A DNA stretch of 64,000 nt. Source: Naegleria gruberi. Taxonomy: Eukaryota. A program made the translations under genes and the position numbers. The notes under the pieces are model-generated. The model did no database searches and was not told the origin of the DNA. It saw only the letters and a program-made list of their open reading frames with translations. Below are positions 21,988 to 63,872 of the stretch, one piece after another (positions within the stretch are counted from its first letter, which is position 1; every line of letters begins with the position of its first letter). The stretch lies in NCBI GenBank assembly GCA_000004985.1, contig GG738910.1. One strand, given 5' to 3'.

Positions 21988-23649
21988 ATGGCGAGACTTT
22001 CATGTATTAAAGGTTTATTTAAAATATATATTGCTGTCTTTGCTATTGTTTTATTAATTCTAGTGATTATCAACATTCAACGACATGAATCTGTTTTCAA
22101 GAAATCATCAACCTTTGAATCTATTCGAAACAAAATTTCGAATATAAATTCGGATGTATTAACAGATGAAAAAACAAACGAACAACAAAAAGATCAAGTA
22201 CAAACAATAACTAAACCATCATCAAATTTAAATACAAATATTGCTAATCAACAATTGCAAAACAAACAATCAGAAACTACAACACCTCTGATTTGTCTAA
22301 ATTCCGACTCGAATAGATTGAAAACTAAACAAGAAGAATTATGTGATTCGGAATATGGATGTGGAATGCTTCGTCAATGGAAACAAAATCAATTATTAAT
22401 GTGTGAACGAAAGGAATCCCATCAAAAAACACAATTGACTTGTTATGAACATAATAATTATCACTTGCCAACTGCCACCTTTCCACACACAATTTGTGAT
22501 TCTGAAAATCTAGTCATGGATTTCTCAAAATTAGTAAGAGCACCATGTTTGAAATATAGACCTGGATATTTTTGTAAAAAGGAAACTTATTACAATTACA
22601 AATCTGGAGCATTGATTGGAAATTGTCATAGAACGAATGAATTTTCAAATTTGAATCATTTTGCAAATGATTTTGGAAAGGATATCTTTTCCAGTTTTAT
22701 AACATTTGAAGAAAAACAAGTTGATTTGCAAAATGTGAAATTTTTTGATGGAATTACTATTTTCGTATCGAGAGAACAAGATGAACATGTCAATATGTTT
22801 CATGCAATGAGTGATTTCTTTGCCACACATGTTGTCATTGAAATGTTTAAACTGAACAGTTCAAATATTCAAATAGTCATTTTGGATGAGCATTTTGATG
22901 GACCTTTTGATTTCTTGTGGGATAAGGCACTTTCCTTCAAGAGACCAATGAAAAAGGCCTCTTCCTTTTCAAATGGAATGGTAAGATTTGAGAGGGCAAT
23001 CTTTCAACATGCTGGCTATGCTACACATTTCCTCTCAAATTTGATGAATTTTAATGAGAATGATGCTACTATGTGTCACTCAAAAATTCCACTCGTTGCC
23101 AATTTTGCCAATAGAATTTTGAATGGTTTGGGTATCAAGAAGAGAGAAATCAATAAGGGTGATGTGATTCGTGTCTTGTTCATCAGTCGAAGACCTTATG
23201 TGAAATTTGGAGTCGAGCACAATTTCATGTCTCGTCAAATTAGCAATGAAGAAGAGGTGTTGGATCGAATGAAGACTCACAGAGAATATGGCAAGAAATT
23301 CACAGTGGAAAGAGTTGATTTTGCACATTTGAAATTAGTTGAACAAATTCAAAAAGTTCACGATTCAGATTTCTTAATTGGATATCATGGAGCTGGATTG
23401 ACTCACTCATTGTGGATGCCTGAGGAAACCTCTGCAGTTCTTGAAATTTGGAATACAGTAACAACAAGAGGATGGAGATGCTTTGAACAATTCACATTTT
23501 GGAAGGGAAACGACTATACATTGTGGAGTAATTCAAATCCAAAGAATTTGAGAAAGGACAGTTTGGGAGATTACTTGACTGTGGATGTTGCGGACTTTTA
23601 CAAAACATTTGATAGAATGGTTAACAAGTTGATTGACTCTAGGAATTAG
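21988..23649 (+). CDS. GT61 family (DUF563) glycosyltransferase, EOGT-like (553 aa), type II membrane topology
   Basis: N-terminal signal anchor (IYIAVFAIVLLILVIINI), a stem region, then a catalytic domain ending with the diagnostic motif ...DSDFLIGYHGAGLTHSLWMPEETSAVLEIW.... This matches the GT61/EOGT [I/V]G-HGAGLTN ... EI motif. Confidence 0.7.
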   Translation: MARLSCIKGLFKIYIAVFAIVLLILVIINIQRHESVFKKSSTFESIRNKISNINSDVLTDEKTNEQQKDQVQTITKPSSNLNTNIANQQLQNKQSETTTPLICLNSDSNRLKTKQEELCDSEYGCGMLRQWKQNQLLMCERKESHQKTQLTCYEHNNYHLPTATFPHTICDSENLVMDFSKLVRAPCLKYRPGYFCKKETYYNYKSGALIGNCHRTNEFSNLNHFANDFGKDIFSSFITFEEKQVDLQNVKFFDGITIFVSREQDEHVNMFHAMSDFFATHVVIEMFKLNSSNIQIVILDEHFDGPFDFLWDKALSFKRPMKKASSFSNGMVRFERAIFQHAGYATHFLSNLMNFNENDATMCHSKIPLVANFANRILNGLGIKKREINKGDVIRVLFISRRPYVKFGVEHNFMSRQISNEEEVLDRMKTHREYGKKFTVERVDFAHLKLVEQIQKVHDSDFLIGYHGAGLTHSLWMPEETSAVLEIWNTVTTRGWRCFEQFTFWKGNDYTLWSNSNPKNLRKDSLGDYLTVDVADFYKTFDRMVNKLIDSRN

Positions 23650-42357: not shown

Positions 42358-42974
42358 ATTATTCCAATCATCAAGATGTATGTAACATTGCAAATTAATA
42401 AAAACAAAATTGAGAACAAGTAATTATACTAATGGATACTAAAGCTCAGGGACTGTTTCACCTTTAAGGTGATTCAGTCTTGAGACCTGCATTAATGGAT
42501 ATAAATCTTTATTAGCAGGTCCCGAGAATAATAAATATGGCTCTTATAAAAAAACTTATGTTGTGTCTATTAATAATTATCGCACGATGAGCTGTGCCAA
42601 TTTTATTCCTTTCCATTAATAGGATATTTCTCAAGATTTCAAAATCTCGAATACACCATAAAACAGCAAACAATGAATAGAGTACCGACTATGTATTGCT
42701 TACATCCTACCTATATACTTTTCATCATAGGAGACAATGTAGGTGATGTGAAATTTAATTAAAATCAGAAATATCAAAATCTTCATGATTTCAACGAAAC
42801 ACGACGAAATAATTGGCACGGTACATCTACAATAGTACTAATAAAAGTTTATTAATGTTTCAAGATGATTGACTGTGTACTTTTGGCATGAATCATGATT
42901 GGTGACCATGAATAACCCGAAGTTGACAAAAACACAAAATGATGAAAATTGAAAGTTTTCCAAATTATCATGTG

Positions 42975-43310
42975 AATCTGGCAGTGATGATGATTTTAGT
43001 GAAAATATTGAATTTCACTAAAATATTACTATTATCAGATTTATTTCCACAAATATTACTATTATAATGATGATAAATAACAATGATGATGGTTGGTAGT
43101 TGTTCCGATGATCATGTACCAACTTGGATTTTTCCAAATAATAAAATTATGAAGGAAAAATAAAATTATTTCCAAATCATGATGAAAGATTAAATTCCAA
43201 AAATTACTATTAATACTATTATTTAAATCATGATGAGATGATGTGGTGAAATTCTTGGAGTTAATAGATGTGAAACTACTCCAAAAATCAATAGAGTTGT
43301 GATGTACCTG
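42975..43310 (+). repeat. Degenerate partial copy (copy 2) of the dispersed element, between cluster members 3 and 4
   Basis: It aligns in the same orientation as copy 3 (e.g. 'cagtgatgatgattttagtgaaaatattgaatttcactaaaatattactattat...ccgatgatcatgtaccaacttggatttttcc') but with many substitutions and indels. The small-ORF region is disrupted. Confidence 0.5.
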
Positions 43311-43396
43311 ATCAACATATTTTTAAAAAAAATAGAGACAGTTGACAAAACAAAAAAACAACAACAAGCTCATCACCACCTGCTAAATAATTATTT

Positions 43397-46300
43397 ATGA
43401 TGAAGACCTCCATTTGCTTCCCATTACTACATTCAAACCACAACATGGCTGTACATTATAGTAAAGGTTCATGTTCAACTACTACTTTGTTGCTAGAAGA
43501 ACAAGATGTGGCTGAAGGTGTTGAACGCCTGTCTCCTCTTGTTCTAAACCTTCGGCTCGACTTCATGCCACCAGTGTTGATTAATAACATTTACTGTCCA
43601 AATATAAAGTGGTGTACTTTGTCAGGAGCGTATGGACTGAAAAGGAAATGCAGAATCGAGATAATGTTTATATTATATAAACTGAACCTTAAAAAAATGG
43701 CCACGTTCATTCAAGAAAAACAAATGGCTGTTTCTAAGGGTGCACAAAAATCATCAATAATTTCAACCATGATGATGATAATTTTTGTATGCCTATTATT
43801 TCTCGCTAACTCGATAAGGGGAATTGACTTTGAGGTTGCGCCTTATTACAAAGTAACAACTTTATTGAGAGAAGCCGATAAAGTTGAGTGTGTTCGTTTT
43901 GGTCCGAAGGGTATATATTATTCCAAGCCATACCAAATAGTTTTATACTCTTTGGACAGTTCTTCAATGTATGTAACTCAAGGAGCTGGCAATTTTGGCA
44001 CTGGAGAAAGAGGCGACACTAATGGTGCTAGATACTGGCGTGATATTACAGGAACATATTCATTAAAATCCAAGATTGATTACCCTTACAAGTTTGCCTT
44101 CCATGCTGGAAGATCCAAAACTTACTTTGCACTGGCTAATCATCAAGTAAAGCTAGACACTGACGATGTTATTTCTCCATTCATTGGTAAACCAAATGTA
44201 ACAGGTAATGCGGAAGGAGATCCTACTTCTGAGTGTCTGTTGAATGATCCTCAAGGAGTTGACGTTTCATTTGATGGTGATTTTGTGTATGTGGCTGATA
44301 CTGGTAACAATCTTATCAAGTATACTTCATACAAAGATGGTGTATTCGTCATTAGTAATCTTGCTGGTACTGGTAACACAACAAGTTTAGTTGACGGTGT
44401 CAATGCTTTACAGGTTGACCTTAATAGACCTGTTTCTGTAAGGTTTTCCAAAAAAACAGGTGAGATTTATATTGCAGAAAAGGGAAATCATGTTATTAGA
44501 AAAGTTAGAAAAGACAATATTGCTTCTGTAGCGGTTGGTTCAATTGGTATCTCAGGTTATAACGGAGATTTTAAGAGTTCTTTGGATTCATTTTTGAGTG
44601 AACCAAGTGATATTGCGATTTCCACTAGTGGTGTTATATATATTGCTGATTCTGGTAATAATCGAGTCAGAAAAGTTTATCAAAATGGTATGTTGGTTTT
44701 CCTCTATTCAGTTTTTACCTTGGGAATGATATATAGGAACAATAACAACTGTATGCGGAAATGGAATGAACATGTATGGAGGCGATTCACTTGATTCTAG
44801 AAGAACAGCAATAGGAGGTGTAAATTCTGTTGATGTTAATGAAAATGGAGAATTAGTTATTTCTCACATGAATTATATTCGTAAATTGACTCCTATTTGT
44901 TATAATGGTTATGTATTCAATTCTGAAACTCATTTGTGTAATCCGTATTTCCAGTGTTTTGGAAAGAAACATACTGAACCATATGTGTGCTCTGGAAGAG
45001 GATCTTGTATTAACCATAATTGTATTTGCAAAGAAGGATTTGAAGGAGAAAAATGTGAAACTATATCAAAGGTTTTCAATGTGAAACGATTGTTGGTTTC
45101 TGGAGAAGTAACAAATCTACCACCATCAATTTTAGCAGCAAATATGAAACATCTTCAAGTGAGCAATACTGGCGACATGATTGTCCTTACACAAGATGGA
45201 ATCCTTGGAAGACTTGTTGGAAACTCACTGGTTAAAGTTTCTCAATCTAGTCTGGCATTGTTCTACCTGGAAGAAGATGGTTCAATACTTACAACATCTA
45301 CTACTTCAATTATCAAGATTGGTATTGATGGAGCTATATTATCTCTTGTAAAAACAACTAATTTCTATGATGTAGATGGCGTCTCACCAACAAATATTAA
45401 TATTGGCGCATTTAGTTGTATTACACAAGATCAAGTTTCAAAAGTCTACTATGTTACAGAATATTACTCAAATGTTTTTGCAAAAGTTGAAAATGGGAAG
45501 TTAGCTTTACTGATTAGTAATACAAAAGGATTTGCAGATGGCTTAAAAAATGTTGCCAGATCTACCTCTCCTAAATTTGTTTATGCATATGGAGGCACAG
45601 TCATATTTTCAGATTATAACAGAATAAGAATGTGGAAAGATTACACAACCACAACAATTGCAGGTAATGGTATCGAAGGATACAACGGAAATAATGTACC
45701 AAAATTGGCCTGTTCTTTTGGTGAAATTGTTGGGTTTCATGTAGTTAGAAAATCAGCAACAGTGTTTTGGATTTACGTTTCTGACAGTTATTCTAGAACA
45801 ATCAGATTAATCAAAACCAATGAAAATAATGTAACTATAATTGCTGGATCCCCTGGGACCGGCAAATACATGAATTTTGAGGATAACCCCAAGAAGGCCA
45901 TTTTTTCATTACCTATTGGTTTATCGATGGTCAATGACACTTTATATTTCATTGACCAAGGAAGTAGTAGAATTATGAGTCTTTCACCTGATGGTACTAA
46001 ACTGACAACCATTGCAGGCGGAAGAGGTGTTTTAAACGTTGGAGAAAATCTAGACCAACGGTTTTCTTATTTTGGTCCATCCCCTACAGGAATTTATCTT
46101 AAAGAATCACCAACAAGGGAATTATTAATTAGTGATAGTAATATTGGCAGAATAAGAAAAAGCATTTTTGAAAACAATCTTTGGGGTAATGTGACTACAC
46201 TTGCTGGTACTTCAACCAGTGAATTGCCAGTTGATAAAGGAATGGATGGTGACTGTTTAACTTGCGCCTTCCTAAGACCTTCAAAAATACGATTCGGGGG

Positions 46301-49300
46301 AAATGAAACTCTACTTGTATCAGAATCGATTAATACTGTCAAACTTATCAATGTTGGGCAGGGATCAGTTAGAACACTTGTTGGAACTCCTTACACTAAT
46401 CCTCTACAAAATCCATCTCTTGTAACTGTCAATACGTCAGCAATAGGATTCCAGATAGATGGGTTACGGGATGCTATTCTTGTTGGAGATGAACTGGTTT
46501 TTGCTGAAAAATCCAGAATTCTTAAGGTCAATTCACAAGGTTTAATAGAAATTGTTGCTGGTGATGGAAATGGTTATTCATGTAATTTTGGTAATTACAT
46601 GTCGGCCAAAATGGCAAAGTTTGGCAATAATGCTGTGGGAACAAAATTGGTAACCTCTCTCGATTATTACGATGGAGAGATTTATATTTTAGAAGAATAC
46701 GCTCTCAGAAAAGTTAATTCCAAAGGAATAATGATACCAATAATTAGTGGGCAAGGAACAACGTCTTGGTCGAATGGAGTTAGAAAATTGCCATTACAAG
46801 ATGCATCAATTCCTGCATGTAGTTTTATGAAAGTTGTTAATGAAAATGAGATTTATATTCTCAGTACTGCAGGACAGTTGTATATTGTAAGAAATGGAAC
46901 TGTTGAGAGACCTATTATAACTAAAGATTTATCTTTTATGGGCCCAGTATATTCCCAATTCTATAGCACAAGCGATGGAGAATTTTACATGTTGACTGCA
47001 AATACGGTTGAATTAGGTAAAATGAGTTGTCCTTCATTTTCCAAACAAAATGAAAATGATACATGTGAAAATATGATAACTTGTTTTGGTTTAAAGTCAA
47101 CAGATCAAAATGTTTGTTCAACGAATGGTAAATGTTCAGCTTTGGATACATGTATCTGTAATTTTGGTTGGAGTGGTGTTAAATGTAATGAATCAACTGC
47201 TCAATTGGTGATTCAAAGCCTGAACCCAAACAGAGTTACCACTGATGATGGACTTGATATTGGTTTCAAAACCTCCTCTTCTCCATTGACAAATTTAAAA
47301 GTTGATACAAAAACAGGAATTGTTTATTTGCTTTCTGGAGGAAAAACCATTTCTCTCAACGGCAAAACAAATGATTGGGTTAGATCCAGTGATACAACAT
47401 CAAAATCTATGATTATTTCTAAAACAACAGGTTACTTCTATTTTTTAAGAGAATCTTGCATCTACCAAAGGGGAGCAACTCCTTATCCATATTATTATTC
47501 TGGAAATTGCTACACTAAGGGTTCAGTTCTTGGAACTATTTCAACCGCATCATATAACAACTTGGAAGATGGTGACTCTGGGGAGGATGGTAGTTTGTAT
47601 ATAGTTGATAGTGGAAATCACGTTGTAAGATTAATATCAGAAGGAGTAATGTCAACCTTTTGTGGTAGTTTTGGTGTTTCTGGTTTATTTATCAACTCTA
47701 ATTCCTCAACCAAAACTTTTTTGAAATCACCAAGGGCCATCAAAGTCACCTCAAACGGGGTTTACATTGCTGATAGTGGAAATTACAGAATTCTTTTTAT
47801 TGATAAATCTGGACATGTCCAAAAAATTGCAGGGTCATCAAATGGTACATCAAATGGGGATGGAAAAGCAACTCTGACAAATATTTTCCCTTCTAATTCA
47901 TTGGATTATTCAGAGAGTCGCCAAGAACTGTACTTTATAGATAATAATAGAGATGAGATGAATTCAGGGAGTGTAAAAGTAAGAAAGATTACCAAAGATG
48001 GATATGTTGAAACGTTGTTTGGTTATTACGAGAGGGATCCATATTCAAACTTAACAGTTCCAATGACCATCACACTGGAAAAGGATACCAGTTTCTATGC
48101 AGCAAATTCTTTGGCTGTTTCAGGTGATTACTTGTATTTAACATTTGATTCTGTGAAATTGATTGCAAAAGTTTCACTTTCCACAAATACCTTGTATGTG
48201 GTTTCCAAAATAGGTTCAGTCCTGAATGGTGATGGCTTTCATGTCGGTTTTACCACCTTCCAACACCCAAGTGCACCATATTTCCATAGTATTACTCGTA
48301 CTTTGTATTGGGTTGAAATGTCCTCAATAAGAATGATGAGAGATAACAAAGTTTACACCGTGGTTGGCCTTAATTCAAACATTCCTTCCTTTGGAAAGAT
48401 GAAACCATTGTGGAAAGATATTTCTCCAAAAGGAATTGCACTTTCATCAACTGGAGAGTTATATTTTTCTGATGGACAGCATGTCATTTATAAGATTCTA
48501 AATTCAAGATCTGATATTGAAATTGTTTGGGGAAAGAAAGGTGTTTATGGAAGTGCTGACACTCTTCTAGAAAATCCAACTGCTATTTTTATTAATTCCA
48601 AAGATGAACTGTATATTGCTGATTCATACAGAATAATCAAGTTTGACATCACCTCCAAGAAAATTACTAAAATAGTGAGTAAGAGTGATGTATATTTTGG
48701 TATATGTTCATCAGTGATAGAACTTTCAACAGGAGAAATAGTCTATGTGGATTCTTATTTTAAAAAAGTTAGAATGATTCTCAACAATGGTACAAATATT
48801 ATAATCGCTGGTGGTGGTTTAAAAACAGGTGTTTCGAATGGTGATCTTGCAACAAAACTACTTTTCACCACTCCTGTTTCAGTTCAAGAAATCAACACAG
48901 GAGTATTACTTTTGCTGGAGCAAAACTCTTTGATCAAGATGACTTGGTCTCCATCTAGAAATGGTTATATTTGTTCAATAATTGCTGGAAAGGGCTTATA
49001 TAGTATGACTGCCTCAGGAAATGGTGGTCTTGCGATAAATGCTGTTATCTATAATTTTGCTATGAGTTACAATACATTTACGAAAGAGGTTTATCTTCTT
49101 GACAATGTTGAGTCAAGAATTATCACTCCGTACTGTCCAGAAGGGTTCACTTTTAATATTTCAAATGAGACATGTCAGCCAGTTGATATGTGTTTTGGTT
49201 TTAATTCAAATGACAACAGAGCGTGTTCTGGAAGAGGTGAGTGCGTTGGTCTTGATGCATGTAATTGTTTTGGAGGTTACAGTGGAATCAAGTGTGAAAT

Positions 49301-52300
49301 AATGTGTCACAAAACATGTGAAGGAACTGTTGTGGACGCATCATTCATGTTAACGGAATTCTCAACTGATTTTAGCAAACCTGGCAATTTGGTGGTAGAT
49401 TCTGAGTACATTTATGTTTCTGATTCTGAAGACAATGTAGTTAAACGTTTTGATAAGGGTGGATATTCTTCAATTTATTGTGGAATTGAAGGACAAAGTG
49501 GCAACCAAGGAAATGGTTTACCAGGAACTGAAGCCACACTAAATTCACCTCTAGGTTTAAGTGTATACAATAATGAACTATTTATTGCTGATTTTAACAA
49601 TAGTGTCATCAGAAAGGTTGACGCTTTTGGGTTTGTTGATGTTGCATTCAATACAACAGAAAAACCTCTCAACATTATTGCCAGGGGCGAAAACGTATTT
49701 TACTATACAGATTCCACTTCATTGTACATGATTAACCAATCAGTTATTAGTACCATTGCAACAGGATTTGATAGTCCTTATGGATTGTTCTATTATTCAA
49801 ATACGTCCAACATGGAGGAAAGTTTACTAGTTGCAGATACCAATAATAACTCAATCAAGAAGGTATCTCTCTCTGATAGACAAGTTACCATAATTCTTTC
49901 TAATTTGAATTCTCCTAAAGGACTATTCATTGATTCTTTTGGTGATCTTTATATTGCTGACAGTGGATCAAACCAAATTTTAAAGTATTCAGGAGGTGTT
50001 TTGAAGGTAATTGCAGGAACATCCAATTCCTCAATGAATGGTACAGATGGTGCAATCAATTCACTTCAAGCAATTCTGCACTCTCCTAGTGATCTTATTG
50101 TAACAGATGAAGGAATTATTTATTTCACCGATTCACAAGGATATGCCGTGAAAACTCTCACTCCTGTTTGTGATAAAATTTCCATGTATGATCCAATTTT
50201 AAGAAAGTGTTTCCGACCTCTACTTTGTTTCAATTTTGGTATTGATGATAAGAGAGCTTGTAGCTCTAATGGTCAATGTGTTGCAGAGAATACCTGTAAT
50301 TGTAATGATAATTGGGGAGGGGATGATTGTTCCATTCCATCATGTTTCAACATTTCTGCTTCAAGTACCACTACGGTTTGTTCTGGACATGGTTTGTGTA
50401 TTGATCATAATACTTGTCGATGTGATACTGGTTGGTCTGGTGCTGACTGTTCAATTGCATCATGTTATGGTATCAAGGGTGATAACAGTTCAGTATGTTA
50501 CGGAAATGGCCAGTGTGTCGGTTTTAATCAATGTTCTTGTAATAATGGATGGTCTGATTTCGATTGTTTGACACCTTCGTGCTTTGGCTTGACCTATGAT
50601 TTGGATTCTTCATGTTCTGGAAATGGCAAATGTATTTCTAATGATACTTGTGAATGTTATTTAGGTTATCAAGGTCCTGATTGCTCTACAGTGTCAGTCG
50701 ATCCATTCCAAGTATACAATCCAGTACTAACTGTTAAGACTATTGGTTCTTTGAACAAACCAAAAGGAGTTACAGTATCTTCGAGTGGTGATATTTATTT
50801 CAGCGATACTAGCAACAATAAGTTGAAGAAGATATTACAATCTGATTGGTCTGTATCTCTTATTGCTGGAACTGGTACTGGTTCGTTTTCAGGTGATGGA
50901 TCTTCACCAACAGCAGCCACTATTAATAATCCTATTGGTTTGGATATTACAGAAAACGGAGAAGTTTATTTTGCTGATTCAAATAACAATAGAGTTAGAA
51001 AATGTAGTTATGATGGTAAATTAATCTCGACAGTGGTCCAAGTTACATCTCCTCAACAAGTCAAAATTGACGAATACAATAATCGATTGTGGATTGTTGC
51101 TTCTGGAGGAGTTTACATGTATGATTTGAATATTGCAAATATGACCCTTGTATACAGTAATGATCTCAATACTCCATTCGGAATTGATATTGGATATCAA
51201 GGTAAAATAGTGTACATTACAGACAAATCAAATCATGTTATTAGAAAGCTCGCAAAAAGAGGTAATTCATATGTTCAATCTATTTATTTTGGAAGTAAGG
51301 GAGTAACTGGAACCTACTCATCAACATCTAATATGAATAACCCAATGGGTATATCAGTAACTAATGGTAATAGTATTATATTTTCTGATTCCTCTAATCA
51401 TGTAATTAAACTGATTTCTCATGGAGTTAACAAGACAACATCAGTTATTGTTGGTACTGGATCTTCATCAGGTTATTCAGCAACAGAAACTAAACCTCTT
51501 TCCATGGCTCTAAATACTCCCGGTGATGTATTTGTGAATGAGAAAGGAATTTATATTGCTGATACCAATGACAACGCCATTAGAATTATTAAGATTTCAT
51601 GTCCATACACTAACTATGTTTTCAATTATTATACTTCCAAGTGTGAATTTGATACCAGAATTTCTTGTAATAAGATTTCATTTTCTTCACCAAATGTTTG
51701 TAATGGTAAAGGTGTTTGTTATGGAGTTGATAAATGCAACTGTACAAGTGGGTGGAATGGTACTTTTTGTGAAATACCTATTTGTTTTGGAGTGTCCAAT
51801 CCAAAACTAGCTTGTAGTTCAAATGGTCAATGTATTTCTAACAATACTTGTTCCTGTAATGATGGTTGGTTTGGATCTATTTGTCAAAATCCATCTTGTT
51901 TTGGAATTTCATATAATGATTCAAATACCTGTTCTGGAAATGGTCAATGTATTGCAAATAATACTTGCTCGTGTGATAATTTTTACGAAGGCAAAAATTG
52001 TTCTCTTCCAAAATGTTTTGGTATTAATTCAGACAGCTCATTGGTTTGTAGTGGAAATGGTTTATGCGTTAGCCCAGATACATGTAATTGTACTAGCGGT
52101 TATTTTGGAAATGATTGTTTTTACACAAATTGTTTTGGAATATTGTCAGGAGAAACTACTGTATGTTCCTCAAAAGGAAACTGTACTGCTCCAAATACTT
52201 GTTTTTGTGAAAAAGGGTATTATGGGAATCAGTGTCAAAACTTTACTTGTTTTGGAATTGACTCATTCAGCCCCAATGCTTGCTCATCTCGTGGAAGTTG

Positions 52301-55300
52301 TATTGACATCGATAAATGTAAATGTGGAGATGATTTTTATGGTTCTAATTGCACAGGGTTTGATTGCTTTGGTTATCCATCAACTAATCCAAATACTTGT
52401 TCTGGTAAGGGTGATTGTTTAAATCCAAACACTTGTATCTGTAATGATGGTTATGCAGGTGAAAGGTGTGAAATTGCTCGTTGTTTTGGAGTTTATGGAA
52501 ATGAATCAAACGTATGTGATTCACATGGTGAGTGTGTATCCTTAGATAACTGTACATGTACATCACTTCATCATTATGGAGATAATTGCGATAGATTTGA
52601 TTGTTTTGGAATTGAGAGTAGCAATTCAAGTGTTTGCTCTTCCCATGGAAATTGTACTTTCCTTGATATTTGTAATTGTTCGAAAGGTTACGAAGGTTTA
52701 TCATGTTCTGAATTCAATTGTTTTGGAAAAAAGCCAATCGCTTCTGATATTTGTTCTGGAAATGGCATTTGTACTGGTCCAAATATATGTAATTGCAAAG
52801 ATGGGTATTTTGGAGATGATTGTCAGATAACCAATTGTTATGGAATTCATAGTAATGAGTCTAGTGTATGTTCATCAAATGGTAGATGTATTTCTTTAGA
52901 TTCTTGCTCTTGCTCTTTTGGATATTATGGAGAGATGTGTCAAGAATATGATTGTTTTGGAATGAAACACTCAAATACAAGTGTTTGTTCACAACATGGA
53001 ACATGTCATTCTCCAAATAATTGCACTTGTAATGATGGATATCATGGTGCAGACTGTGATAGATTCAATTGTTTTGGAGTTTCTTCTTTCAATAGTTCAG
53101 TATGTTCATCAAGAGGTTACTGCAAATTACCAAATGTCTGTTCTTGCACTGGAACTTTTTATGGTGAAAATTGTGAACAATATGACTGTTTTGGAATCAA
53201 TTATCAAAACTCAAATGTTTGTTCCTCACACGGTAAATGTATTGGGGCTGATGCTTGTCAGTGTTATGATGGATATATATCTAGTAATTGTTCTGTTCCT
53301 CTTTGCTTTGGTATTTCAGCTCTTAACTCGTCAGTTTGTAGAGGACATGGTTATTGTACTTCACCTAATAAGTGTGACTGCATTTCGAATCAAGATACAA
53401 AGTTTGATGGACAGGAATGTCAAAATCATTTCTGTAAGGAATACGATGGAACCTTAATAAGGTTTAACAATAATTCAGTTTGTAGTGGTTCTGGAGTTTG
53501 TAAGTTAAATCGAGTCATGAAGAGAAGCGAATGTGTATGTAGTGAAAATTATGGAGGAGAGTCTTGTGAAATGCCAAAATGTTTCGGTATTTTACAAAAT
53601 GAGACAAGTGCTTGTAACAACAATGGATTTTGTTCAAGTGTAGATACTTGTGAATGTCATCATAATGATTTTTTTGGATATTGGAAGGGTTCTAATTGTA
53701 CACAATGCCAAGTTCCATATTCTGGATCCAAATGTAATGTTATTAAGGAGTGCAATGCTTCTGTCTGTCATAACAATGGTATTTGTGACGAGTACATGAC
53801 TTGCATTTGTAATTCTAATCAAACACATGGTTTCTGGAATGCAGAATTTTGTAACGTTTGTCAAGAAGGTTATTATGGAAAGGAGTGTTCCACGCAAATG
53901 CTTGGCCCTCTTAAATTAAGTGGAGAGGCATCATCCATGACATTCAAGATGAATGCTCCAATTTCATTTTCAAAGACAAGTGTTAACTGTACAAGATTTT
54001 TGAGGGAAGATTCTTATGAAACTGTTGGAGGATTGCAATCTATTTGTTCTTGGAATAATAGTATGATGAAAGTGACATTTGGTGCTTCATTTGATGTTAA
54101 ATCAGGTAGAATTATTTATTTGAATAGATTGGTCTTTGATGAGAGCGGATATGATTACGAACCGATCAAATTGGAATATCCAGATACACCAATCCTTCCT
54201 ACTGCCATTGTCGAATCAAACAAATTAGTTGGATCTTGCGACAGTATTATAATTGATGGAAGTAAGAGTTACTCTCCTGATTCTAAACCTCTTTCATTTT
54301 CTTGGAAAGTTGTTAATTCTCCAAATATTAATAGTTTGCAACACATTGTACAATCACAAACAAGATCTATTCTTTCCATTGATAGTAGCAATTGCTCTAC
54401 AGGTGTTCACATTTTCGAGCTGATTGTAAAGAGTTCTATATTAGAATTACAAAGTATTCCACTAACAATTTCCATCACTAAGGCAGAAATTCCTCTACCA
54501 ACTATTTCCATAGATGCACAAGCCTCCCCTCTCACAACTTCAAAGTTACCATACAAGATAATGAAAAGTACTGTTTTGCCTGATTGTGCTCAATCTTTGA
54601 GTATGATATATAATTGGAAGCTGGTGAGCGGTAGAAACGATATTGTTTTTGAGATGGATCAATTTAATAATTTAGTAATTATCAATTACTTCCTGGAAGA
54701 TTCAAGTTATGAATTTGAATGTAGTGTATTTGTGGAAGGACATGCAGAAAATATTATTACTTCAAAAGTTTCCTTTAGTACCAAGATTAGTCCTTTATCT
54801 TCTGAAATCAGACTTGTTGAATTATCAACCAATTATACTATTATTCAATTATTGTTCAGGGATCCAGAAATTGTTAATGAAGAGGTTAATGTTGAATGGG
54901 AGTGTATTGATTTGGACACCAAACTGAATTGTTCATCGTCACTTCTTTCCCATCTTTCAACTTTACCTCTTAACTCTGAATTTTTAATATCTGGAAGTTT
55001 GTTATCAAATTACAACAACATATCCTTGAAATCTACTATCAAGAAGGGAAAGAGAATTTCCAATAGTGAACTCGTAGTAACCATTCCTCAAAAAACACTC
55101 CCTCCAATTATTTCACCTGTTTATCTGTCGCCAAGTAATTTAGCTCTAGGATCGAGTATTAATCTTCAATTTGGTGTAACTATCGATGGAAGTGATGACA
55201 TTAGTTCAGCTATTAGTAGAAAATGGACTCTCAACAATGTTGTTATTGAAAAATCAGATAGTATGAGACTGGATCCATCTGAATCCAACTCCTTAATATT

Positions 55301-57002
55301 AGCAACTAATTCTTTTACAGAAGGGGCCACATACAAGATTGATTTCAAAGTGACTGACCAAAGAAATAATCAATTTTCAATCTATTCCTATTCTTTTTCA
55401 ATCAAGATTTCTCCAAAGTGTACATGTACAATTAGTCCATCATCTGGTTATGCTCTCCAAACTCTTTTTACATTTGCATGTACTGATTGTAAAAATAATC
55501 AAGGACCTTTATCGTTCGAATATGGCTTCATAGATAGTCGTTACCAAACTAGAGTAACCTTATCAAAGAGTTCTAAATATTCGGCCGTTCTCCCATCCTC
55601 TTATCAAGGAAATACATTGAATCTGTATGCTGTTGTTAGTGACTCTGTAAGTCAATCATCAAGTTATTTGAGTGCAGAAGTTCTTGTACCTGTCATTGGT
55701 TCACTAGCTGAAGCAAAGAAGAAACAACTTCAATGGAAAACAACAGGTTCCTCACTCAAAGATGGTGATTATATGAAGAGTGTGTATAGCAATGATGTTA
55801 TGACAAGTACTTTCACAAAGATGATTGCCTCTTTACTATCAGCAAGATCTGTTTGTAACGGAAAAGGAGTTCTAAATAATGGAAAATGTCAATGTGATAA
55901 TGGGTATTCTTCATTTGATTGTAGATATACCACTTCTGATTATGTATCCATTCAAGAGAGTGTATTTGATTTATCTAACGATTTTAAAGAAACATTTGGT
56001 GTTTATCTAGATTCCAAAGATATTCTAAGCGAAAAGTTTGTTGCCAATATTATTTTCGGACTTGAAACTTTGACAAATCGTTTTGATTTCTTGAATGAGA
56101 CATCTTTTGACATTATCTTATCAATTGTTGATCATTTATTGGAAGAACACGAAAAGTATTCATCAGTTCAAACATCCAATGGTGTAGATACGCTCTTACT
56201 CGATATTTTGGATCATTTATATTCTTTTACAGAATATTATGAGATTAAGGAACAATTAATGAGCAAATTAATTGAAATTTCCCAAAGACTCTCTTCACTT
56301 GAATCAAGAAAAATATTGGTCGGCCAACCTCCTTTAATTCTTTCCAATCAATTACAAACTTCAATTACCAACAAACATTTTAGAGAGGAATATTCAGGAC
56401 TAGTAATTAGATATAATAATTATTCTACTATACTACCAGAGTCTTTCTCAAAGCATCTATCCAATCAGCCAAAGAGAGTACCAGTTACTTACAGTTGGTT
56501 TGCTCTTAAAGATCTTTCACAATTCATATTACCAGGAAATGCATCAAGAATTATCTCAAAATATGTTGTGAAATTCACATTGGAAAAGGTTAAATATTTG
56601 GAATTATTGAAAGAACCTGTGAAATTTGAAATACCACTCATTGAACCAATAGACATGAATTCTAATAAGTATTCCTGTATTGACTTTTCCAACATGACAA
56701 TGCCAGTGGAAAGTGAGTGCCAATTTAAAGTGGAAAATGGAATAGCCTCTTGTTCTTGCTTAAACTACTCAAGTACCGTTGGAATAACATTCTTTGAACG
56801 CAGTCGAAGAGCTCCATCAATTCTTGCAGTTAAAACTGCACCACTTTGGGAATTATTCTCTCTACTCACAATTCCATTTGCAATAATTTTGGTTGGTTGT
56901 GCATTCACAATTAAAACGATTTTTAACAGAAAAATCAGCCTTGACAATAATCAATTCGAATTGAGAAACGTGGACAGCATGATTGTGACGGAATCAGCTT
57001 AA
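43397..57002 (+). CDS. Cluster member 4 (giant, ~4,400 aa): NHL propeller(s), ~45 tenascin-type EGF units, PKD/REJ-like module, GPS-like motif, C-terminal TM; 2 exons, approx join(43397..44687,44737..57002); functional start probably at the ATG at ~43697 (MATFIQEKQMAVSKGAQKSSIISTMMMIIFVCLLFLANSIRG signal)
   Basis: ORF 43397..44794 joins ORF 44766..57002 through a 49-nt intron (caaaatg|gtatgt...atatag|gaacaataacaactg), restoring ...RVRKVYQNG|TITTVCGNGMNMYGGDSL.... The module shares collinear blocks with member 5 (GSCDSIIIDGSKSYSPDSKPLSFSWKV vs GSCEDVLIDASESYSPDRKTLNFKWTV; KCTCTISPSSGYALQTLFTFACTDCKN vs KACSCAISPTSGIALTTIFTFNCENCQN; KSVCNGKGVLNNGKCQCDNGYSSFDCRYT vs KDCSGHGSLVNGKCVCEADYTTFDCRMT). 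Juxtamembrane YSCIDFSNMTMPVESECQFKVENGIASCSC, TM LWELFSLLTIPFAIILVGCAFTI. Confidence 0.6.
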
Positions 57003-58205: not shown

Positions 58206-61200
58206 TTAAACAGACTTCATTTCAACTCCTTGTTTTGAGGAATTTGTAGTTTCTGGTTTCATTCTCTTAACAACACAATAACCAAAAATTCCCAATACAA
58301 TAAAGGCAATAATGATAAAGCAAATAATCAAAAAAGCCCACAAAATCCAGAATAACTCAGAGATTCCCTTTGGAGTTTCAGGATTAACTTGTTTTTCAAT
58401 TGGAACAGATGATAAAATACCAACTCTAACATTTTCTGAACATTCACATTGGCCAGAATTAGAATTGAAGGAGAATTTACATGAAGAAGCATCAATGACT
58501 TGACCATTTGTAACTTGAATGCACGAATAAGTTGCCTTATCATTAAAAGTTTGTGTAAGTGGCAAGGAATGAGTTATTGGAGAGGAATAGTTTGTAATAG
58601 ATGTTGAGAATTTAATTTCAGATAAATCAGAGACAATAGTATTAGTTGTACCTTCTTGTTGAGGAGTTACATATTGAGAAACATCCTTAATAATCATCCA
58701 AATGTAATTGACTGGCTTTCTGAGAGAGACACTTTGTAACCTTTGAGAAACAGTTGAAGGAAGAGTTAATGAAGTTTGACTTTCTGTCAAAACTTGTGAA
58801 TCAAAAGTATTCTTAAATTGCTTGTTGAATTGATGAACTGCAAAATTAGGTTCAAACTTGAAAGATGATTGACCAACAAGAACCTTTCTTGAAAGTAATG
58901 AAACCACCATGTGACAACTTTCCATCAATTCTGAATAGTCATACGAAGGCAAAGTCTTTAAATAAGAATGCATGGAATTGAGGGACGAAAGCAACAACCT
59001 TTCAACACCAACTTCAAATTGGAATAATGGAGTGTTTTCAGCATCATTCAAGGTTGACTTGATAATATTCATACTCATGTTATAGACATTAGCAGAAACG
59101 TAACTCTTCAACATAGATTCAATACCGAACATAATGTTAGTAAAAAACCTTCCAGTTATCTTTTCTCCATTTTCATTCTTGACTTGTTGGGAAGAAAAGA
59201 AAGCAGTAGCCAAATCTTGAGTAATTTCATTCAAAATTTCATAATCTTCCTTTGTCATTCTACAGTCAAATGTTGTGTAATCAGCCTCACAAACACATTT
59301 TCCATTAACCAATGAACCATGTCCAGAACAATCTTTCTTTACACTTCTTGATTTAGGGGCGAGAGAATCTGTCATTCTCTTGAGGACTCTTGAAATGATT
59401 GCAGAATTGAAAACAGATCTAGCATAATCACCAGTTGGTAATAATAAGGTGATGGCGTTCCATTTTGTCATGTACTCCTTGATATCCTTTACCTTTGATA
59501 CATATGGAGCTGTAATTTGAACTGATTTCTTGGAAAGAGTTGTTGCAGATGTTTCAGTATCAATAACCTTAACATACAGTTCAAGATTATTACCAGAATT
59601 TGGAGTTGGAAGTTTTTGGTACAATTCTTCATCCTTTGATAAGGTAATTAAAGCACCTGAGAAATCATCAATAAAACCATATTCGAAAGCATAAGTCTTC
59701 TTATCATTTTGACAATTTTCACAATTGAAAGTAAAGATTGTGGTCAAAGCAATACCAGAAGTTGGACTAATGGCACAACTACATGCTTTTGGAGGTCTGT
59801 TAACAGAGAAGGAATAAGAATATGATGTCTTTTGATTATTTCTCTTATCCAAGATAGTTAATGAAATGGTATTAGAACTACCTTCATCCAAATATTGAGT
59901 ATCCAAAATTAGAGAATTTGACAATGATGAACTGATACTCATTGGTGATGTTAATATAGCATCAATAGCCTTGTCATTCAATAACCATGTTCTTGAGATG
60001 AATTGATCTATATTTAAATCACCATTAATAGTGACAACCAATTGAATATTGACATAATCTCCCTTATTAACCTTTGAAGAAGATACTTGAACAACGGAGA
60101 TCAAAGGTGGCATGATTAAATGTTCTGCTTGTTGTGGAAAATTCAAATCAACTGATGATTGAACAAATCTACTTCCCTTTCGAATAGTGAGGCTAATTCT
60201 AACATTTTCTGCTGAACCAAACATTGACTTTTCAATCTTGTATTGTTCAAGAAAACCTTGAGACAAGTAATTAACAACATCAACTGGACAAACAGTATTA
60301 GTAACAGTGTCCACACATGTCCAAGAATAAGTTGGTTGAACATTTTCAGATTCTGGATCAGTGAAATCAATTCCAATGGTACTGTATTGAGGAGTAGAAT
60401 CTAAAACATACATGTTCATTGAGAGTGCTTGAGCTACAGTGTCGATAGTGACAAGAGCTGTTGAAAATTTGTTAACATTAGAAGTATCGAAAGCAGAGAC
60501 TTTGAAAACATATTGTCTTGTTTCAATGGTATTGAAATTGGTAATCTTTAAATTCTTGAATGAATCAACTGTGAATTCTACTTGAGGACCACTGATTTGT
60601 GTCCATGTGTAATCAATATTTGCAGCAGATTCCATGCATATTGGAATGGACAGCTTCTTCTTGAATGAAATTGGAACGTCACTAGTCTTGACAGTAACTG
60701 AACTACTTTTATATAAGCCATCAATGGAAACAACTGGAACAGCATAGGTAAGTTTGGTGAAACTGAATTGAATCTTATCAACCAATGAATAAACTTGACT
60801 AGTTACAGCCAATTCAAATTGATGAACACCAGCATTCATACCAGAATAGCTAATATTCAATTTACTTGGGGAAGCAAGAGTAGAATCCAATAACTTTTGA
60901 AGTTCTACCTTATTTGGTGATGACAATACAGTCCATTTGAAATTCAATGTCTTTCTATCAGGGGAATAACTTTCAGAAGCATCAATTAAAACATCTTCAC
61001 AACTTCCATAAGTGTCCTTAGCTCCAGATATTGTGGCAATCGGACTCTTTGGTGATAAAGCACCTTGGACAGTAAATGCCAAATATTGAGCATTGACATT
61101 ATTTGATTCAAAGTATAAATTATTCAAAGAGATACTATCACCTGCCTTCAATTTGTAGTCCGTGTTAAGTTCAATTGAGAATTCAAACGTTTCCTTGTTA

Positions 61201-63872
61201 GACCAGTAACATTTTGGATTAGTTCCAAGAAGATCAATACTCTTCAACAACTTGTTACAATCAAGAATCATACTATTAGTATATAAAGAAGAATAAGATG
61301 CAGGTGCAATAACCTTAAATGTCAAACCAGTCAAATCATCCATAAAAAGAACTGGTCCAATAATCTTTGTTGAACACAATTCACCATAAACTCCATCTGC
61401 ACAGGTAGAACAAGATTCACCCTTCCAGAAACCTTTCTTGTTATCTGCATAACAAGTACATTGTTCAAGCTCATTACAATAACCATTTCCACTACAAGTA
61501 GTTGAGGCATTACATTTAACCAAACTATTACACATAGCTCCTAAATAAGGAGAAACACATGCTGAACAATCTGCACCAGTCCAATAACCTTTGCCAGCTA
61601 TGTTATCACAGACACAAATATTCAAATCTGTACATTGACCATGTCCAGAACAAACAGATGAAGCATTGGAAGAAATGCCACCACAAGTGAATTGAGCACA
61701 ATGACTTCCGTAATATCCAGATTGACAAGAACAATGATCGAAAAAATCACATCTACCTTTTCCATAACATGCTGACGCATTTGTTGAGGCAGTTCCATAA
61801 CAATCAAATTGACTACAATCATATCCAGTAGTATCCATCTAAACAGGAGCAATTATTTGGGGAGATGCAACCACCATGTCCATAACATGCTGAACCACTT
61901 GTTGAGGCAGTTCCATAACAATCAAATTGACTACAATCATTCCCGTAGTATCCATCTAAACAAGAACAATTATTTGGTGAGATGCAACCACCATGTCCAG
62001 AACATGCTGATGCATTTGTGGAGGCAGTTTCGTAACAATCAAATTGACTACAATCATTTCCGTAGTATCCATCTAAACAAGAACAATTATTTGGTGAGAT
62101 GCAACCACCATGTCCAGAACATGCTGATGCATTTGTGGAGGCAGTTTCGTAACAATCAAATTCACTACAATCATTTCCATAATATCCAGCTAAGCATGAA
62201 CAGTTATTTGGTGAGACACAACGACCATAACTAGAACAAACTGAACCACTTGTTGAGGCAGCTCCAAAACAATCAAACTCAGCACAGTCATTTCCGTAAT
62301 GTTCGTTAGAGCATGAGCAATTATTTGGTGAGATGCAATCACCATGTCCAAAACAAACTGAACCACTTGTTGAGGCAGTTCCAAAACAATCAAACTCAGC
62401 ACATTCATTTCCATAGTATCCAGAGGTGCATGAACAATTATTTGGTGCAATACAATAGCCATTTCCAGAGCAAGCTGATGAATTACTTGGTGAAATATCA
62501 AAACATTTGAAAGAACTGCAATCTGATCCACTATATCCAGCTAAGCATGAGCAGTTATTTGGTGAGAGACAGGTTCCATGAACAGAACATGCTGATGCAC
62601 TTTTTGAGGCAGTTCCAAAACAATCAAATTGGCTACAATCATTTCCATAGTAATCGTTTGAGCATGAGCAATTATTTGGTGAGAGACATATTCCTTGAGA
62701 AGAACAAACTGATGAAGAAGTAAATAATGTACCAAAACATTCGTATTCACTACAATTACTACCATAGTATCCATAGGTGCATGAACAATTATTTGGAGCA
62801 ATGCAACTACCATGACCAGAACAAACTGATGCATTACCTGGAGCAATGTCATAACATTTGAATAAACTACAATCAGCACCACTGTATCCAGATAAACAGG
62901 AGCAATTGTTTGGAGCAACACAACTTCCATGTCCTGAGCAAACGTTGTGGTCAGTATTCAAAATATCACTACAATTAAAAAGTTGACAATCTGCACCAAA
63001 GTAATTTGTTTCACATTTACAAGTATCTATGGCTGTACATGTTCCGTGGCCTGAGCAAACAGTTGAGTTGTCACCTGAAATTCCATTACATGTTGGATAT
63101 TGACAAGTGTTTGGAGCAACACATGTGGTATATTGAGGACATGCTTTTGGATGTGTGGCCACAATACCATTACACTTTGGAGTTTGACAATTTGAACCAC
63201 CCCAAAGTACACCATAATCTGTCAAGCTGCCAGGAGGAAAAAAAGTATCCTTTCCAAACCCATGGAAAGGAAAAGTTAAACAAGCACCTTTAGTATTGTT
63301 AGCGAAATAATCAGACACTTGAAGTACTAACCTTCTAAAGAATAAAGAACCATGTTCCCATCAACTTGGAGAACAAATTTGAAAGGTGGAGACTGACTAG
63401 CACACTCACCAGTTTTCATGGCTTCCCTGTGTTGATTCAAATCTGCCTTTTCCGTGTTACCGTCGTACAATTTAAGAGAACCAGTTTGTGTTAACACTAA
63501 CTTATAACCATCAGTTGCTGGGCCGAAAGTAGAACTATACCGAGTCATTGTTCTGAGACCTATCTGAATGAGACTACCATCATCGTTCAAGATTAAAGTC
63601 AACTTTCCATCAGCAGATGTTAATGCTTTAGTTGCATAGAGAATTGGTGATTGTTCAGTGAGGCCTGTTTTTTCTGAAAGATCAACACAGAGGCAGCTGT
63701 TTTCACCATAGCAAATATTCCCTCCACAAGTCGAATTGTCTGTTCCAGGAATTCCATTACAAGTATATGAAGTAACCTCACTGATTATGAAAAGCAAAAG
63801 GATTACCAACACCGACACGAACAGTTTCATGTTGTGGATTTTTTTTAAAGTCGAATTTTCAAATTGAATCAA
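58206..63872 (-). CDS. Cluster member 5 (giant, ~2,400 aa, minus strand): signal peptide + bulb-type (B) lectin domain exon, tenascin-type EGF array, PKD/REJ-like module, GPS-like motif, C-terminal TM. Interrupted by an apparent 1-nt frameshift at ~61822-61838. Approx join(complement(63332..63872), complement(~61822..63287), complement(58206..~61838))
   Basis: Exon 1 (ORF 63327..63872) is MKLFVSVLVILLLFIISEV... followed by ...ATDGYKLVLTQTGSLKLYDGN...FKFVLQVDGNMVLYSLEG, the bulb-lectin 'QxDxNxVxY'-type fold. A 44-nt intron (gttagt...gctaac...ctaaag) puts it in frame with ORF 61819..63318, which is all CxCxxGYxGxxC units. That frame hits TGA at 61819 exactly where a repeat unit reads GYYWI* in place of GYYGNDCSQFDCY. 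The +1 frame continues as MDTTGYDCSQFDCYGTAS... (ORF 58206..61838). C-terminus: YSCIQVTNGQVIDASSCKFSFNSNSGQCEC..., TM LFWILWAFLIICFIIIAFIVLGIFGYC, tail VVKRMKPETTNSSKQGVEMKSV*. Confidence 0.55.
61822..62290 (-). repeat. Tandem array of near-identical 117-nt (39-codon) EGF-unit repeats inside cluster member 5
   Basis: Units encoding DCSQFDCY(E/G)TAST(N/S)(A/G)SAC(S/Y)GHGGCISPNNCSCLDGYYGN are repeated at least three times (approx 61822..61938, 61939..62055, 62056..62172) with about 1-3 substitutions per unit, and more divergent units farther 5'. The antisense strand reads as the spurious His-rich ORF 61809..62234. Confidence 0.75.

What the first reader, a model, noticed from the sequence alone, without database searches (positions are those of the whole stretch)
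61815..61845. 1-nt frameshift inside near-identical tandem EGF repeats splits the minus-strand giant gene into two ORFs
Repeat units in the minus-strand gene read ...GHGGCISPNNCSCLDGYYGNDCSQFDCYGTAS.... In the last unit the sequence is GGATACTACTGGATATGATTGTAGTCAA, against GGATACTACGGGAATGATTGTAGTCAA in the neighbouring units. The extra base makes the upstream frame terminate (GYYWI*), while the +1 frame continues perfectly as (T)GYDCSQFDCYGTASTNASACYGKGRC.... This is either an assembly or sequencing error in a 117-nt near-perfect tandem array, or a very recent pseudogenising or allelic frameshift. It is not an intron, because homology to the repeat consensus is continuous.
Basis: seen in the sequence. 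Interest (0 to 1): 0.55.

Follow-up and report, generated by a model that had tools for sequence, protein, structure and literature searches.

The report
Single-base frameshift in Naegleria EGF gene
One extra base splits an otherwise intact surface-receptor-like gene of the amoeba Naegleria gruberi into two reading frames, which is either a very young inactivating mutation or a sequencing error, and the public annotation hides it behind an implausible 73-base "intron".

Summary
The window is Naegleria gruberi. A minus-strand gene (63830..58206) has a signal peptide, one 44-nt intron, an array of 117-nt EGF units, then REJ/PKD domains and a membrane anchor. Ten consecutive units are exactly 117 nt. 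The next (61932..61815) is 118 nt. The upstream frame stops at TGA 61821..61819, and the +1 frame runs a further 1210 codons. Both frames are open only over 61838..61822, exactly where the unit alignment places the extra base.

Removing T61827 restores ...LDGYYGYDC... and a 1,859-residue protein. That protein aligns in one piece across the junction to the uninterrupted neighbouring paralogue. The public model (1835 aa) is reproduced exactly by splicing out 61844..61772. This 73-nt "intron" starts GTTTAG, is in-register EGF coding sequence and removes three cysteines. It is almost certainly an annotation patch.

I found no frameshift-prone motif and no RNA structure that would support programmed frameshifting. 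No independent sequence of this locus exists in any searchable collection, so a real recent or allelic frameshift (about 0.5) cannot be separated from a consensus error (about 0.4). The "near-perfect array" claim is overstated: the affected unit is 90% identical to its nearest neighbours. The finding is ordinary and of low interest, apart from correcting the gene model.

The parts
58206..63830 (-). Whole gene (Naegleria gruberi 'predicted protein', public model P0001, 1835 aa). With one base removed it encodes 1,859 aa.
   Evidence: 99% identity, 100% coverage to P0001; the model is reproduced exactly from window coordinates; corrected CDS has length divisible by 3 and a single terminal stop.
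63768..63830 (-). Start codon and a predicted N-terminal signal peptide, MKLFVSVLVILLLFIISEVTS.
   Evidence: Read from the sequence. It is a hydrophobic N-terminus. No predictor was run.
63288..63331 (-). Intron 1, credible: 44 nt, GTTAGT...gCTAACaa...AAAG.
   Evidence: Its length and 5' site match six other ORF-joining introns in the window.
61581..62985 (-). Array of 12 in-register EGF units (39 aa, six Cys each, teneurin-type EGF).
   Evidence: (Pfam EGF_2 3.8e-55, EGF_TEN 1.5e-44).
61815..61932 (-). The one 118-nt unit (unit 10), which carries the extra base.
61822..61838 (-). The only stretch where the upstream and downstream frames are both open. The extra base must lie here. The most conservative placement is T61827, whose removal gives LDGYYGYDC and keeps the conserved Gly. 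T61823 is an equally parsimonious placement at DNA level (GGGAAT to TGGATAT).
   Evidence: Gly occupies this EGF position in 65 of 74 units of the family.
61819..61821 (-). Premature TGA that ends the upstream frame (...GYYWI*).
61772..61844 (-). The 73-nt 'intron 2' of the public model (GTTTAG...GTCAG). I judge it an annotation patch over the frameshift.
   Evidence: exact reconstruction of the model; non-consensus 5' site and atypical length; it is in-register EGF coding sequence, and removing it deletes three Cys.
58206..61838 (-). Downstream 1210-codon ORF holding the last EGF units, PKD-like and REJ domains, a membrane anchor and a short tail.
59463..60362 (-). REJ domain (residues 493-792 of the downstream ORF).
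   Evidence: PF02010, 6.6e-22, 78 bits against a cut-off of 25.
58269..58358 (-). Predicted transmembrane segment ELFWILWAFLIICFIIIAFIVLGIFGYCVV.
   Evidence: for the coordinates. The call rests on hydrophobicity read from the sequence.

Best explanation
The locus is one gene for a secreted, membrane-anchored EGF/REJ protein of Naegleria gruberi, and it carries one extra nucleotide inside its tenth EGF unit. I commit to the reading that the extra base is a genuine, very young mutation. It may be present on only one haplotype of this heterozygous diploid strain. It truncates the product after the EGF array, about 653 residues including the signal peptide. The result is a secreted protein that lacks the REJ domain and the membrane anchor, or a transcript cleared by nonsense-mediated decay. 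Shown here: the extra base; the intactness of everything else; the ancestral continuity of the frame; and the implausibility of the annotated intron and of programmed frameshifting. Inferred only: that the base exists in the DNA of the organism rather than only in the consensus, and what happens to the transcript.
For: One gene: the junction-spanning corrected protein aligns as a single HSP (query 1-799, E 5e-146) to the uninterrupted 4078-codon paralogue next door. Paralogues P0002-P0004 show the same EGF-to-REJ order. One lesion only: this is the single frame break in the window between open stretches of at least 120 codons that a consensus intron does not explain. Young: there are 1210 stop-free codons downstream (P about 1e-39 by chance). 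Unit 10 differs from unit 9 by 6 synonymous and 6 non-synonymous base changes, so it evolved as coding sequence until recently. Real rather than error (weak evidence): the site is not a homopolymer and the window has no N runs. Unit 10 is only 90% identical to its neighbours, so repeat collapse is unlikely with long reads. Both local changes (the added T and AAT to TAT) turn the segment into a copy of the T-GGA-TA that lies 9 nt upstream (gaTGGATActacTGGATAtgat). A templated mutation would produce that pattern, and a base-calling slip would not be expected to. Naegleria is described as mainly a heterozygous diploid (PMC9928731). The gene belongs to a locally expanded family with three paralogues in 30 kb, where loss of one copy is tolerable.
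Against: No read-level or independent sequence supports the base. Only one N. gruberi genome exists (PMC9928731), and every look-up for other copies failed. From my own knowledge, not verified here, the reference is an unfinished Sanger whole-genome shotgun draft of about 8x, and single-base indel errors at roughly one per 1e5 bases are expected in such drafts. One error in a 5.6-kb gene is therefore unremarkable. Total absence of decay is exactly what an artefact predicts. The 'templated copy' argument is post hoc, and I estimate it reaches only about p = 0.1.
Confidence: 0.5

Rival explanations
1. The extra base is a consensus (base-calling or assembly) error in the draft genome. The organism has an intact 1,859-codon gene.
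For: The gene is otherwise perfectly intact: one lesion in 5.6 kb and 1210 open codons downstream. Removing one base restores a canonical EGF unit with all six Cys and the conserved Gly. The reference is a single unfinished draft (my own knowledge), and no second assembly exists.
Against: The context is not a homopolymer or a compression-type motif. The 17 nt upstream and 45 nt downstream of the changed hexamer match sister units exactly, so this is not a generally low-quality stretch. The affected unit is 10% diverged from its neighbours, so mis-piling of reads from different units is unlikely. This is the only unexplained frame break in 64 kb, so there is no sign of a locally error-rich assembly.
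Confidence: 0.4
2. The 73-nt intron of the public model (61844..61772) is real. Recently 'intronised' coding sequence is spliced out, giving the 1835-aa protein.
For: It has GT-AG ends, and removing it restores the frame and reproduces the deposited protein exactly.
Against: The 5' site is GTTTAG, whereas all seven credible introns in the window start GT[AGT][AT]GT and are 40-49 nt. I selected those seven using a 5'-site filter, so the comparison is partly circular. None of the 128 frame-restoring GT..AG pairs has a consensus 5' site. The segment is in-register EGF coding sequence. The same GTTTAG and TCAG motifs recur in the neighbouring units 8 and 9, which the model leaves unspliced. Splicing would remove three cysteines and fuse two broken EGF domains. 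Automated gene finders routinely insert such introns to step over frameshifts (my own knowledge).
Confidence: 0.04
3. Programmed +1 ribosomal frameshifting or stop-codon hopping at AUA-UGA-U yields the full-length protein from the sequence as it stands.
For: The shift would occur at a stop followed by U and would read GAU next, superficially like antizyme UCC-UGA-U (my own knowledge). Skipping one base in 61838..61822 keeps the 39-residue unit spacing.
Against: The 17-nt window holds no known +1 shift-prone codon pair, and the P-site codons UAC, UGG and AUA cannot re-pair in +1 (sequence). The 141 nt that start 9 nt upstream of the stop and extend 3' fold less stably than shuffled controls (z +1.25; 183 of 200 shuffles fold at least as well). 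The stop follows automatically from reading AAT-GAT-type codons out of frame, so its position is not informative. Shifting at the stop would put Trp where 65 of 74 family EGF units have Gly. No paralogue needs a shift.
Confidence: 0.02

Closest known systems
Frameshift-bridging artefactual introns in automated eukaryotic gene models
   Same: A short GT-AG interval whose length is 1 modulo 3 (73 nt) is placed over a single-base frame break, giving a deposited protein that lacks 24 residues.
   Different: Nothing differs in kind. Whether the underlying break is real or an error is unknown.
Young unitary or allelic loss-of-function frameshifts in expanded surface-protein gene families
   Same: There is a single disabling indel, no secondary decay, and intact paralogues nearby.
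   Different: The lesion is not verified in reads, and expression has not been examined.
Programmed +1 frameshifting (antizyme, bacterial RF2, Euplotes AAA-UAA/UAG)
   Same: A 0-frame stop lies at the place where the +1 frame continues, and UGA-U is read as GAU after a one-base skip.
   Different: There is no shift-prone P-site codon, no stimulatory structure, no conservation that could be tested, and the paralogues are single ORFs.
REJ-domain receptors (sea-urchin REJ, polycystin-1) and teneurin-type EGF arrays
   Same: Pfam finds REJ, K319L-like PKD and EGF_TEN/EGF_2 domains in an extracellular region that is followed by a membrane span.
   Different: There is a single C-terminal membrane span rather than 11. 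No GPS/GAIN domain was detected by Pfam before the membrane span. The family is specific to Naegleria and heteroloboseans, and its closest relatives outside N. gruberi are only 22-50% identical over short stretches.

Membership tests
Spliceosomal intron (as in the public gene model, 61844..61772) | GT...AG termini, with removal restoring the reading frame | tested here: met
   removing 73 nt (GTTTAG...GTCAG) reproduces P0001 exactly.
Spliceosomal intron (as in the public gene model, 61844..61772) | 5' splice site and length typical of the organism | tested here: not met
   seven credible introns in the window are 40-49 nt and start GT[AGT][AT]GT. This one is 73 nt and starts GTTTAG. No consensus donor occurs among the 128 frame-restoring GT..AG pairs. 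The sample is small and was selected with a 5'-site filter, so the test is partly circular.
Spliceosomal intron (as in the public gene model, 61844..61772) | The interval is not itself homologous coding sequence, and the spliced product keeps its domains intact | tested here: not met
   the interval aligns in register with EGF units, and its removal deletes three of six Cys-bearing positions across two units.
Spliceosomal intron (as in the public gene model, 61844..61772) | Spliced transcripts observed | not testable with these tools
   No RNA-seq or EST data are accessible.
Programmed +1 ribosomal frameshift site | A shift-prone codon pair in the overlap of the two frames | tested here: not met
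   the overlap GAT GGA TAC TAC TGG ATA TGA contains none of the known motifs (CUU-AGG-C, GCG-AGU-U, UCC-UGA-U, CUU-UGA-C, AAA-UAA). The motif list is from my own knowledge.
Programmed +1 ribosomal frameshift site | A stimulatory RNA structure 3' of the site | tested here: not met
   MFE -24.8 kcal/mol against a shuffle mean of -29.5, z +1.25.
Programmed +1 ribosomal frameshift site | Conservation of the two-frame arrangement in orthologues | not testable with these tools
   no orthologue exists, and the next best hit is 34% identical. The paralogues are single ORFs.
Frameshift pseudogene or loss-of-function allele | Homology to intact genes continues across the break in a different frame | tested here: met
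   a single HSP across the junction to the neighbouring paralogue (E 5e-146).: in-register unit alignment.
Frameshift pseudogene or loss-of-function allele | The lesion is present in the organism's DNA (reads or a second assembly) | not testable with these tools
   searches found no independent sequence. Only one N. gruberi genome exists.
Assembly or consensus error | An error-prone context (homopolymer, gap, N run, collapsed identical repeats) | tested here: not met
   no N in the window.: the site is not a homopolymer.: the affected unit is only 90% identical to its nearest units. This lowers the likelihood of an error but does not exclude one.
REJ/PKD-type EGF receptor family | REJ domain, EGF repeats, signal peptide and membrane span in one polypeptide | tested here: met
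   REJ 78 bits against a cut-off of 25; EGF_2 184 bits; signal peptide and membrane span read from the sequence. This holds only for the frame-corrected gene.
REJ/PKD-type EGF receptor family | GPS/GAIN autoproteolysis motif before the membrane span | tested here: inconclusive
   no Pfam GPS hit at E up to 10. A Cys-rich stretch YSC...C...CEC at 58529..58380 resembles one by eye only. N. fowleri relatives are named 'GPS domain-containing'.

The most novel reading that the evidence does not exclude
The extra base is real and the cell still makes the full-length receptor. This would happen either by splicing out the 73-nt stretch of former coding sequence (a newly born intron with a non-consensus GTTTAG donor) or by a +1 ribosomal shift at AUA-UGA-U. 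Either would be a first for Naegleria.
Probability: 0.05. Interest if true: 0.6.

Novelty: new member of a known kind. Interest (0 to 1): 0.12.

Why it matters
The value is mostly curatorial. The deposited N. gruberi protein (1835 aa) is probably wrong at this point. It lacks 24 residues, including three cysteines, because a gene finder stepped over a one-base frame break. If the base is an error, the true protein has 1,859 residues. If it is real, the locus is a very young null or truncated allele in a locally triplicated EGF/REJ receptor family, and a small data point on gene turnover and heterozygosity in Naegleria. Neither outcome touches an open biological question.

Tried and rejected
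(1) I looked for independent sequence of the locus. Exact-product look-ups for the public model, for the 1210-aa ORF and for an unrelated intronless ORF of the window all returned nothing. The positional collection therefore appears not to hold N. gruberi.

(2) Two metagenome scans with degenerate patterns found 0 hits. One pattern covered the unique peptide just 3' of the site, and the other covered the junction with a variable gap.

(3) The protein database holds only the one public model at high identity, in a cluster of one member, with no haplotig copy and no transcriptome-derived copy.

(4) Literature: the original genome paper is not held. Searches on Naegleria frameshifts and pseudogenes, and on introns, gave nothing specific. 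The pangenome paper confirms that only one N. gruberi genome exists and that Naegleria is a heterozygous diploid.

(5) Repeat-collapse misassembly: I consider it unlikely, because the affected unit is 10% diverged and a collapse would remove 117 nt in frame.

(6) A phase-variation-like contingency tract: rejected, because there is no homopolymer or microsatellite at the site.

(7) Independent expression of the downstream ORF from ATG 61838: I consider it unlikely to be functional. The product would be an extracellular-type domain set without a signal peptide, and the ATG is simply the out-of-frame reading of the recurring ...TTAGATGGATAC... motif.

(8) Alternative genetic code (TGA read as sense): rejected, because TAG follows two codons later in the same frame.

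(9) A bulb-lectin assignment for the N-terminal domain was not confirmed by Pfam.

Full report
**What the window is.** The DNA has about 34% G+C throughout and is densely packed with long ORFs. The 1210-codon minus-strand ORF next to the finding matches a single public protein at 99% identity over its full length. That protein is 'predicted protein [Naegleria gruberi]', 1835 aa, from a 243,952-bp scaffold (P0001). The next best hits are N. gruberi paralogues at 25-34% identity. Proteins from Acrasis, N. fowleri and N. lovaniensis match only over short EGF stretches. The window is therefore nuclear DNA of the amoeboflagellate Naegleria gruberi.

**Checking the observation.**
- The quoted sequence is present on the minus strand at 61836..61809 and is unique in the window.
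- Tandem Repeats Finder reports a 117-nt period over about 61749..62943, with only 77-78% matches.
- When the array is cut in register, ten consecutive units (62985..61933) are exactly 117 nt, or 39 codons with six Cys each. The next unit (61932..61815) is 118 nt.
- The upstream frame ends ...CSCLDGYYWI-TGA at 61821..61819. The +1 frame continues ...GYDCSQFDCYGTASTNASACYGKGRC... for 1210 codons, down to the stop at 58206.
- The downstream frame is closed on its 5' side by TAG 61841..61839. The two frames are therefore both open only over 61838..61822. Any event that connects them must lie in these 17 nt, which is where the unit alignment puts the extra base.
- A 1210-codon open frame at this composition has a chance probability of about 1e-39. 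The two other frames of the same stretch contain 53 and 139 stops.

**Corrections to the description.** Only units 8 and 9 are near-identical (98%). The frameshifted unit 10 is 90% identical to them and 76% to unit 11. The other unit pairs are 51-83% identical. Unit 10 is not the last unit, because at least two further, more degenerate EGF units follow.

The local change can be read in two equally parsimonious ways:
- An inserted T at 61827 plus AAT to TAT. This gives G-Y-D-C once the T is removed.
- G to T plus an inserted T at 61823. This gives W-N-D-C.

Trp occurs nowhere else at that position.

**Anatomy of the gene.**
- The ATG is at 63830 and is followed by a hydrophobic signal-peptide-like N-terminus.
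- A domain of about 145 residues follows. It has no Pfam match.
- Intron 1 lies at 63331..63288. It is 44 nt and reads GTTAGT...CTAAC...AAAG.
- The EGF array comes next (Pfam EGF_2 3.8e-55, EGF_TEN 1.5e-44).
- Downstream of the frame break lie the last EGF units, a K319L-like PKD domain, a REJ domain (6.6e-22, 78 bits against a cut-off of 25), a late teneurin-type EGF, a hydrophobic membrane span (58358..58269) and a short tail.
- Removing one base gives a CDS divisible by three, with a single terminal stop and 1,859 residues.

**One ancestral gene.** An 800-residue query spanning the junction, from 200 residues upstream to 600 downstream, aligns as one HSP (query 1-799, 34% identity, E 5e-146). 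The target is residues 2636-3469 of the uninterrupted 4078-codon ORF on the plus strand just upstream in the window. That neighbour and a third gene at 36244..42357 carry the same EGF and REJ domains, and the neighbour also has NHL repeats. The two ORFs are therefore halves of one ancestral gene, which belongs to a locally triplicated family.

**The public annotation.** Splicing out 63331..63288 and 61844..61772 and translating from 63830 reproduces P0001 residue for residue. The deposited model therefore steps over the frame break with a 73-nt 'intron', GTTTAG...GTCAG. I consider this an annotation patch, for five reasons.
- All seven credible ORF-joining introns in the window are 40-49 nt and begin GT[AGT][AT]GT. 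I picked those candidates with a 5'-site filter, so this comparison is partly circular.
- None of the 128 GT..AG pairs that could restore the frame has such a donor.
- The 73 nt are in-register EGF coding sequence.
- The same GTTTAG and TCAG motifs recur in the neighbouring units 8 and 9, which the model leaves unspliced.
- Splicing would delete 24 residues, including three cysteines, and would leave two broken EGF domains.

Across the whole window, only three junctions exist where open stretches of at least 120 codons change frame with overlap on the same strand. Two are explained by consensus introns (44688..44736 and 63331..63288). The third is this site.

**Programmed frameshifting.** I see no support for it.
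- The 17-nt overlap, GAT GGA TAC TAC TGG ATA TGA, contains no known +1 shift-prone codon pair. The motif list is from my own knowledge.
- The RNA that starts 9 nt upstream of the stop and extends 3' folds less stably than shuffled controls (z +1.25).
- The stop codon arises automatically from reading ...AAT/TAT GAT... out of frame, so its position carries no information.
- The paralogues are single ORFs.
- An alternative genetic code is excluded, because TAG follows two codons after the TGA.

**Real mutation or consensus error?** Both explanations predict what is seen: one lesion and no other decay. Unit 10 differs from unit 9 by 6 synonymous and 6 non-synonymous base changes. It therefore evolved as coding sequence, and any real lesion is much younger than that 10% divergence.

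Three points weigh against an artefact.
- The site is not a homopolymer, there are no Ns, and the flanks match sister units perfectly.
- The unit is diverged enough that read mis-piling or repeat collapse is unlikely. A collapse would in any case remove 117 nt in frame.
- Both local changes convert the segment into a copy of the T-GGA-TA motif 9 nt upstream (gaTGGATActacTGGATAtgat). A templated mutation would do that, and a base-calling slip would not be expected to. This argument is post hoc and weak.

Three points weigh in favour of an artefact.
- From my own knowledge, the reference is an unfinished Sanger shotgun draft of about 8x. Single-base indel errors at roughly one per 1e5 bases are expected in such drafts.
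- No second assembly of the species exists (PMC9928731).
- Complete intactness is the signature of an error.

Naegleria is described as mainly a heterozygous diploid (PMC9928731). An allelic frameshift captured by a mosaic consensus is therefore a natural middle case.

I could find no independent sequence. The exact-product look-ups failed. Two degenerate-pattern scans of metagenome contigs found nothing. The protein database holds only the single public model.

My probability estimates are:

| Explanation | Probability |
|---|---|
| Real recent or allelic frameshift | about 0.5 |
| Consensus error | about 0.4 |
| Real intron | about 0.04 |
| Programmed frameshift | about 0.02 |

**Comparison with known things and verdict.** The site is an ordinary single-base frame disruption in a multi-domain extracellular protein gene. 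An automated gene model has masked it with an artificial intron. The protein resembles REJ/polycystin-1-type ectodomains combined with teneurin-type EGF arrays. It differs in having a single membrane span and no detectable GPS domain. Nothing here is mechanistically new. The useful outcome is a corrected gene structure and a precise test: reads across 61815..61932. Interest is low.

Noticed in passing
window 34200..57002 (+) and 58206..63830 (-): Three paralogous giant EGF/REJ genes lie side by side: 36244..42357 (2037-codon ORF, probably with upstream exons from about 34.2 kb), 43397..57002 (about 4,500 aa, with many NHL repeats as well as EGF and REJ) and the gene of the finding. This looks like a lineage-specific expansion of teneurin-like/REJ ectodomain proteins in Naegleria.
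   Followed up: partly
window 44688..44736 (+): ORFs 43397..44794 and 44766..57002 overlap by 29 nt in different frames. Unlike the finding, a consensus 49-nt intron (GTATGT...ATATAG) explains this cleanly, so it is not a second frameshift.
   Followed up: yes
window 63332..63767 (-): The N-terminal domain of about 145 residues has no Pfam match even at E up to 10. It contains LQVDGNMVLY, which fits the QxDxNxVxY mannose-binding motif of bulb-type (GNA-like) lectins, plus two degenerate repeats of the same shape. It may be a divergent bulb-type lectin domain. This is unconfirmed.
   Followed up: partly
window 58380..58529 (-): A Cys-rich stretch, YSC...SSC...GQCECSENVRVGIL, lies immediately before the membrane span. 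By eye it resembles a GPS motif without the HL/T cleavage residues. Pfam gives no GPS hit. N. fowleri relatives are annotated as GPS domain-containing.
   Followed up: partly
window 15055..15097, 29812..29853, 30024..30067, 34775..34814, 35625..35665, 44688..44736 (+); 63331..63288 (-): All ORF-joining introns recognisable in the window are very short and uniform: 40-49 nt, GT[AGT][AT]GT donors and 20-40% G+C.
   Followed up: partly
window 21933..21988 (+): Only about 55 nt separate the stop of one long ORF from the ATG of the next ORF on the same strand and in the same frame. Either the intergenic spacer is extremely short or there is an unrecognised gene structure.
   Followed up: no
window 61822..61836 (-): The altered hexamer TGGATA at the frameshift is an exact copy of the TGGATA 9 nt upstream. 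This is compatible with a template-switch or local misalignment mutation that created the substitution and the insertion in one event.
   Followed up: partly
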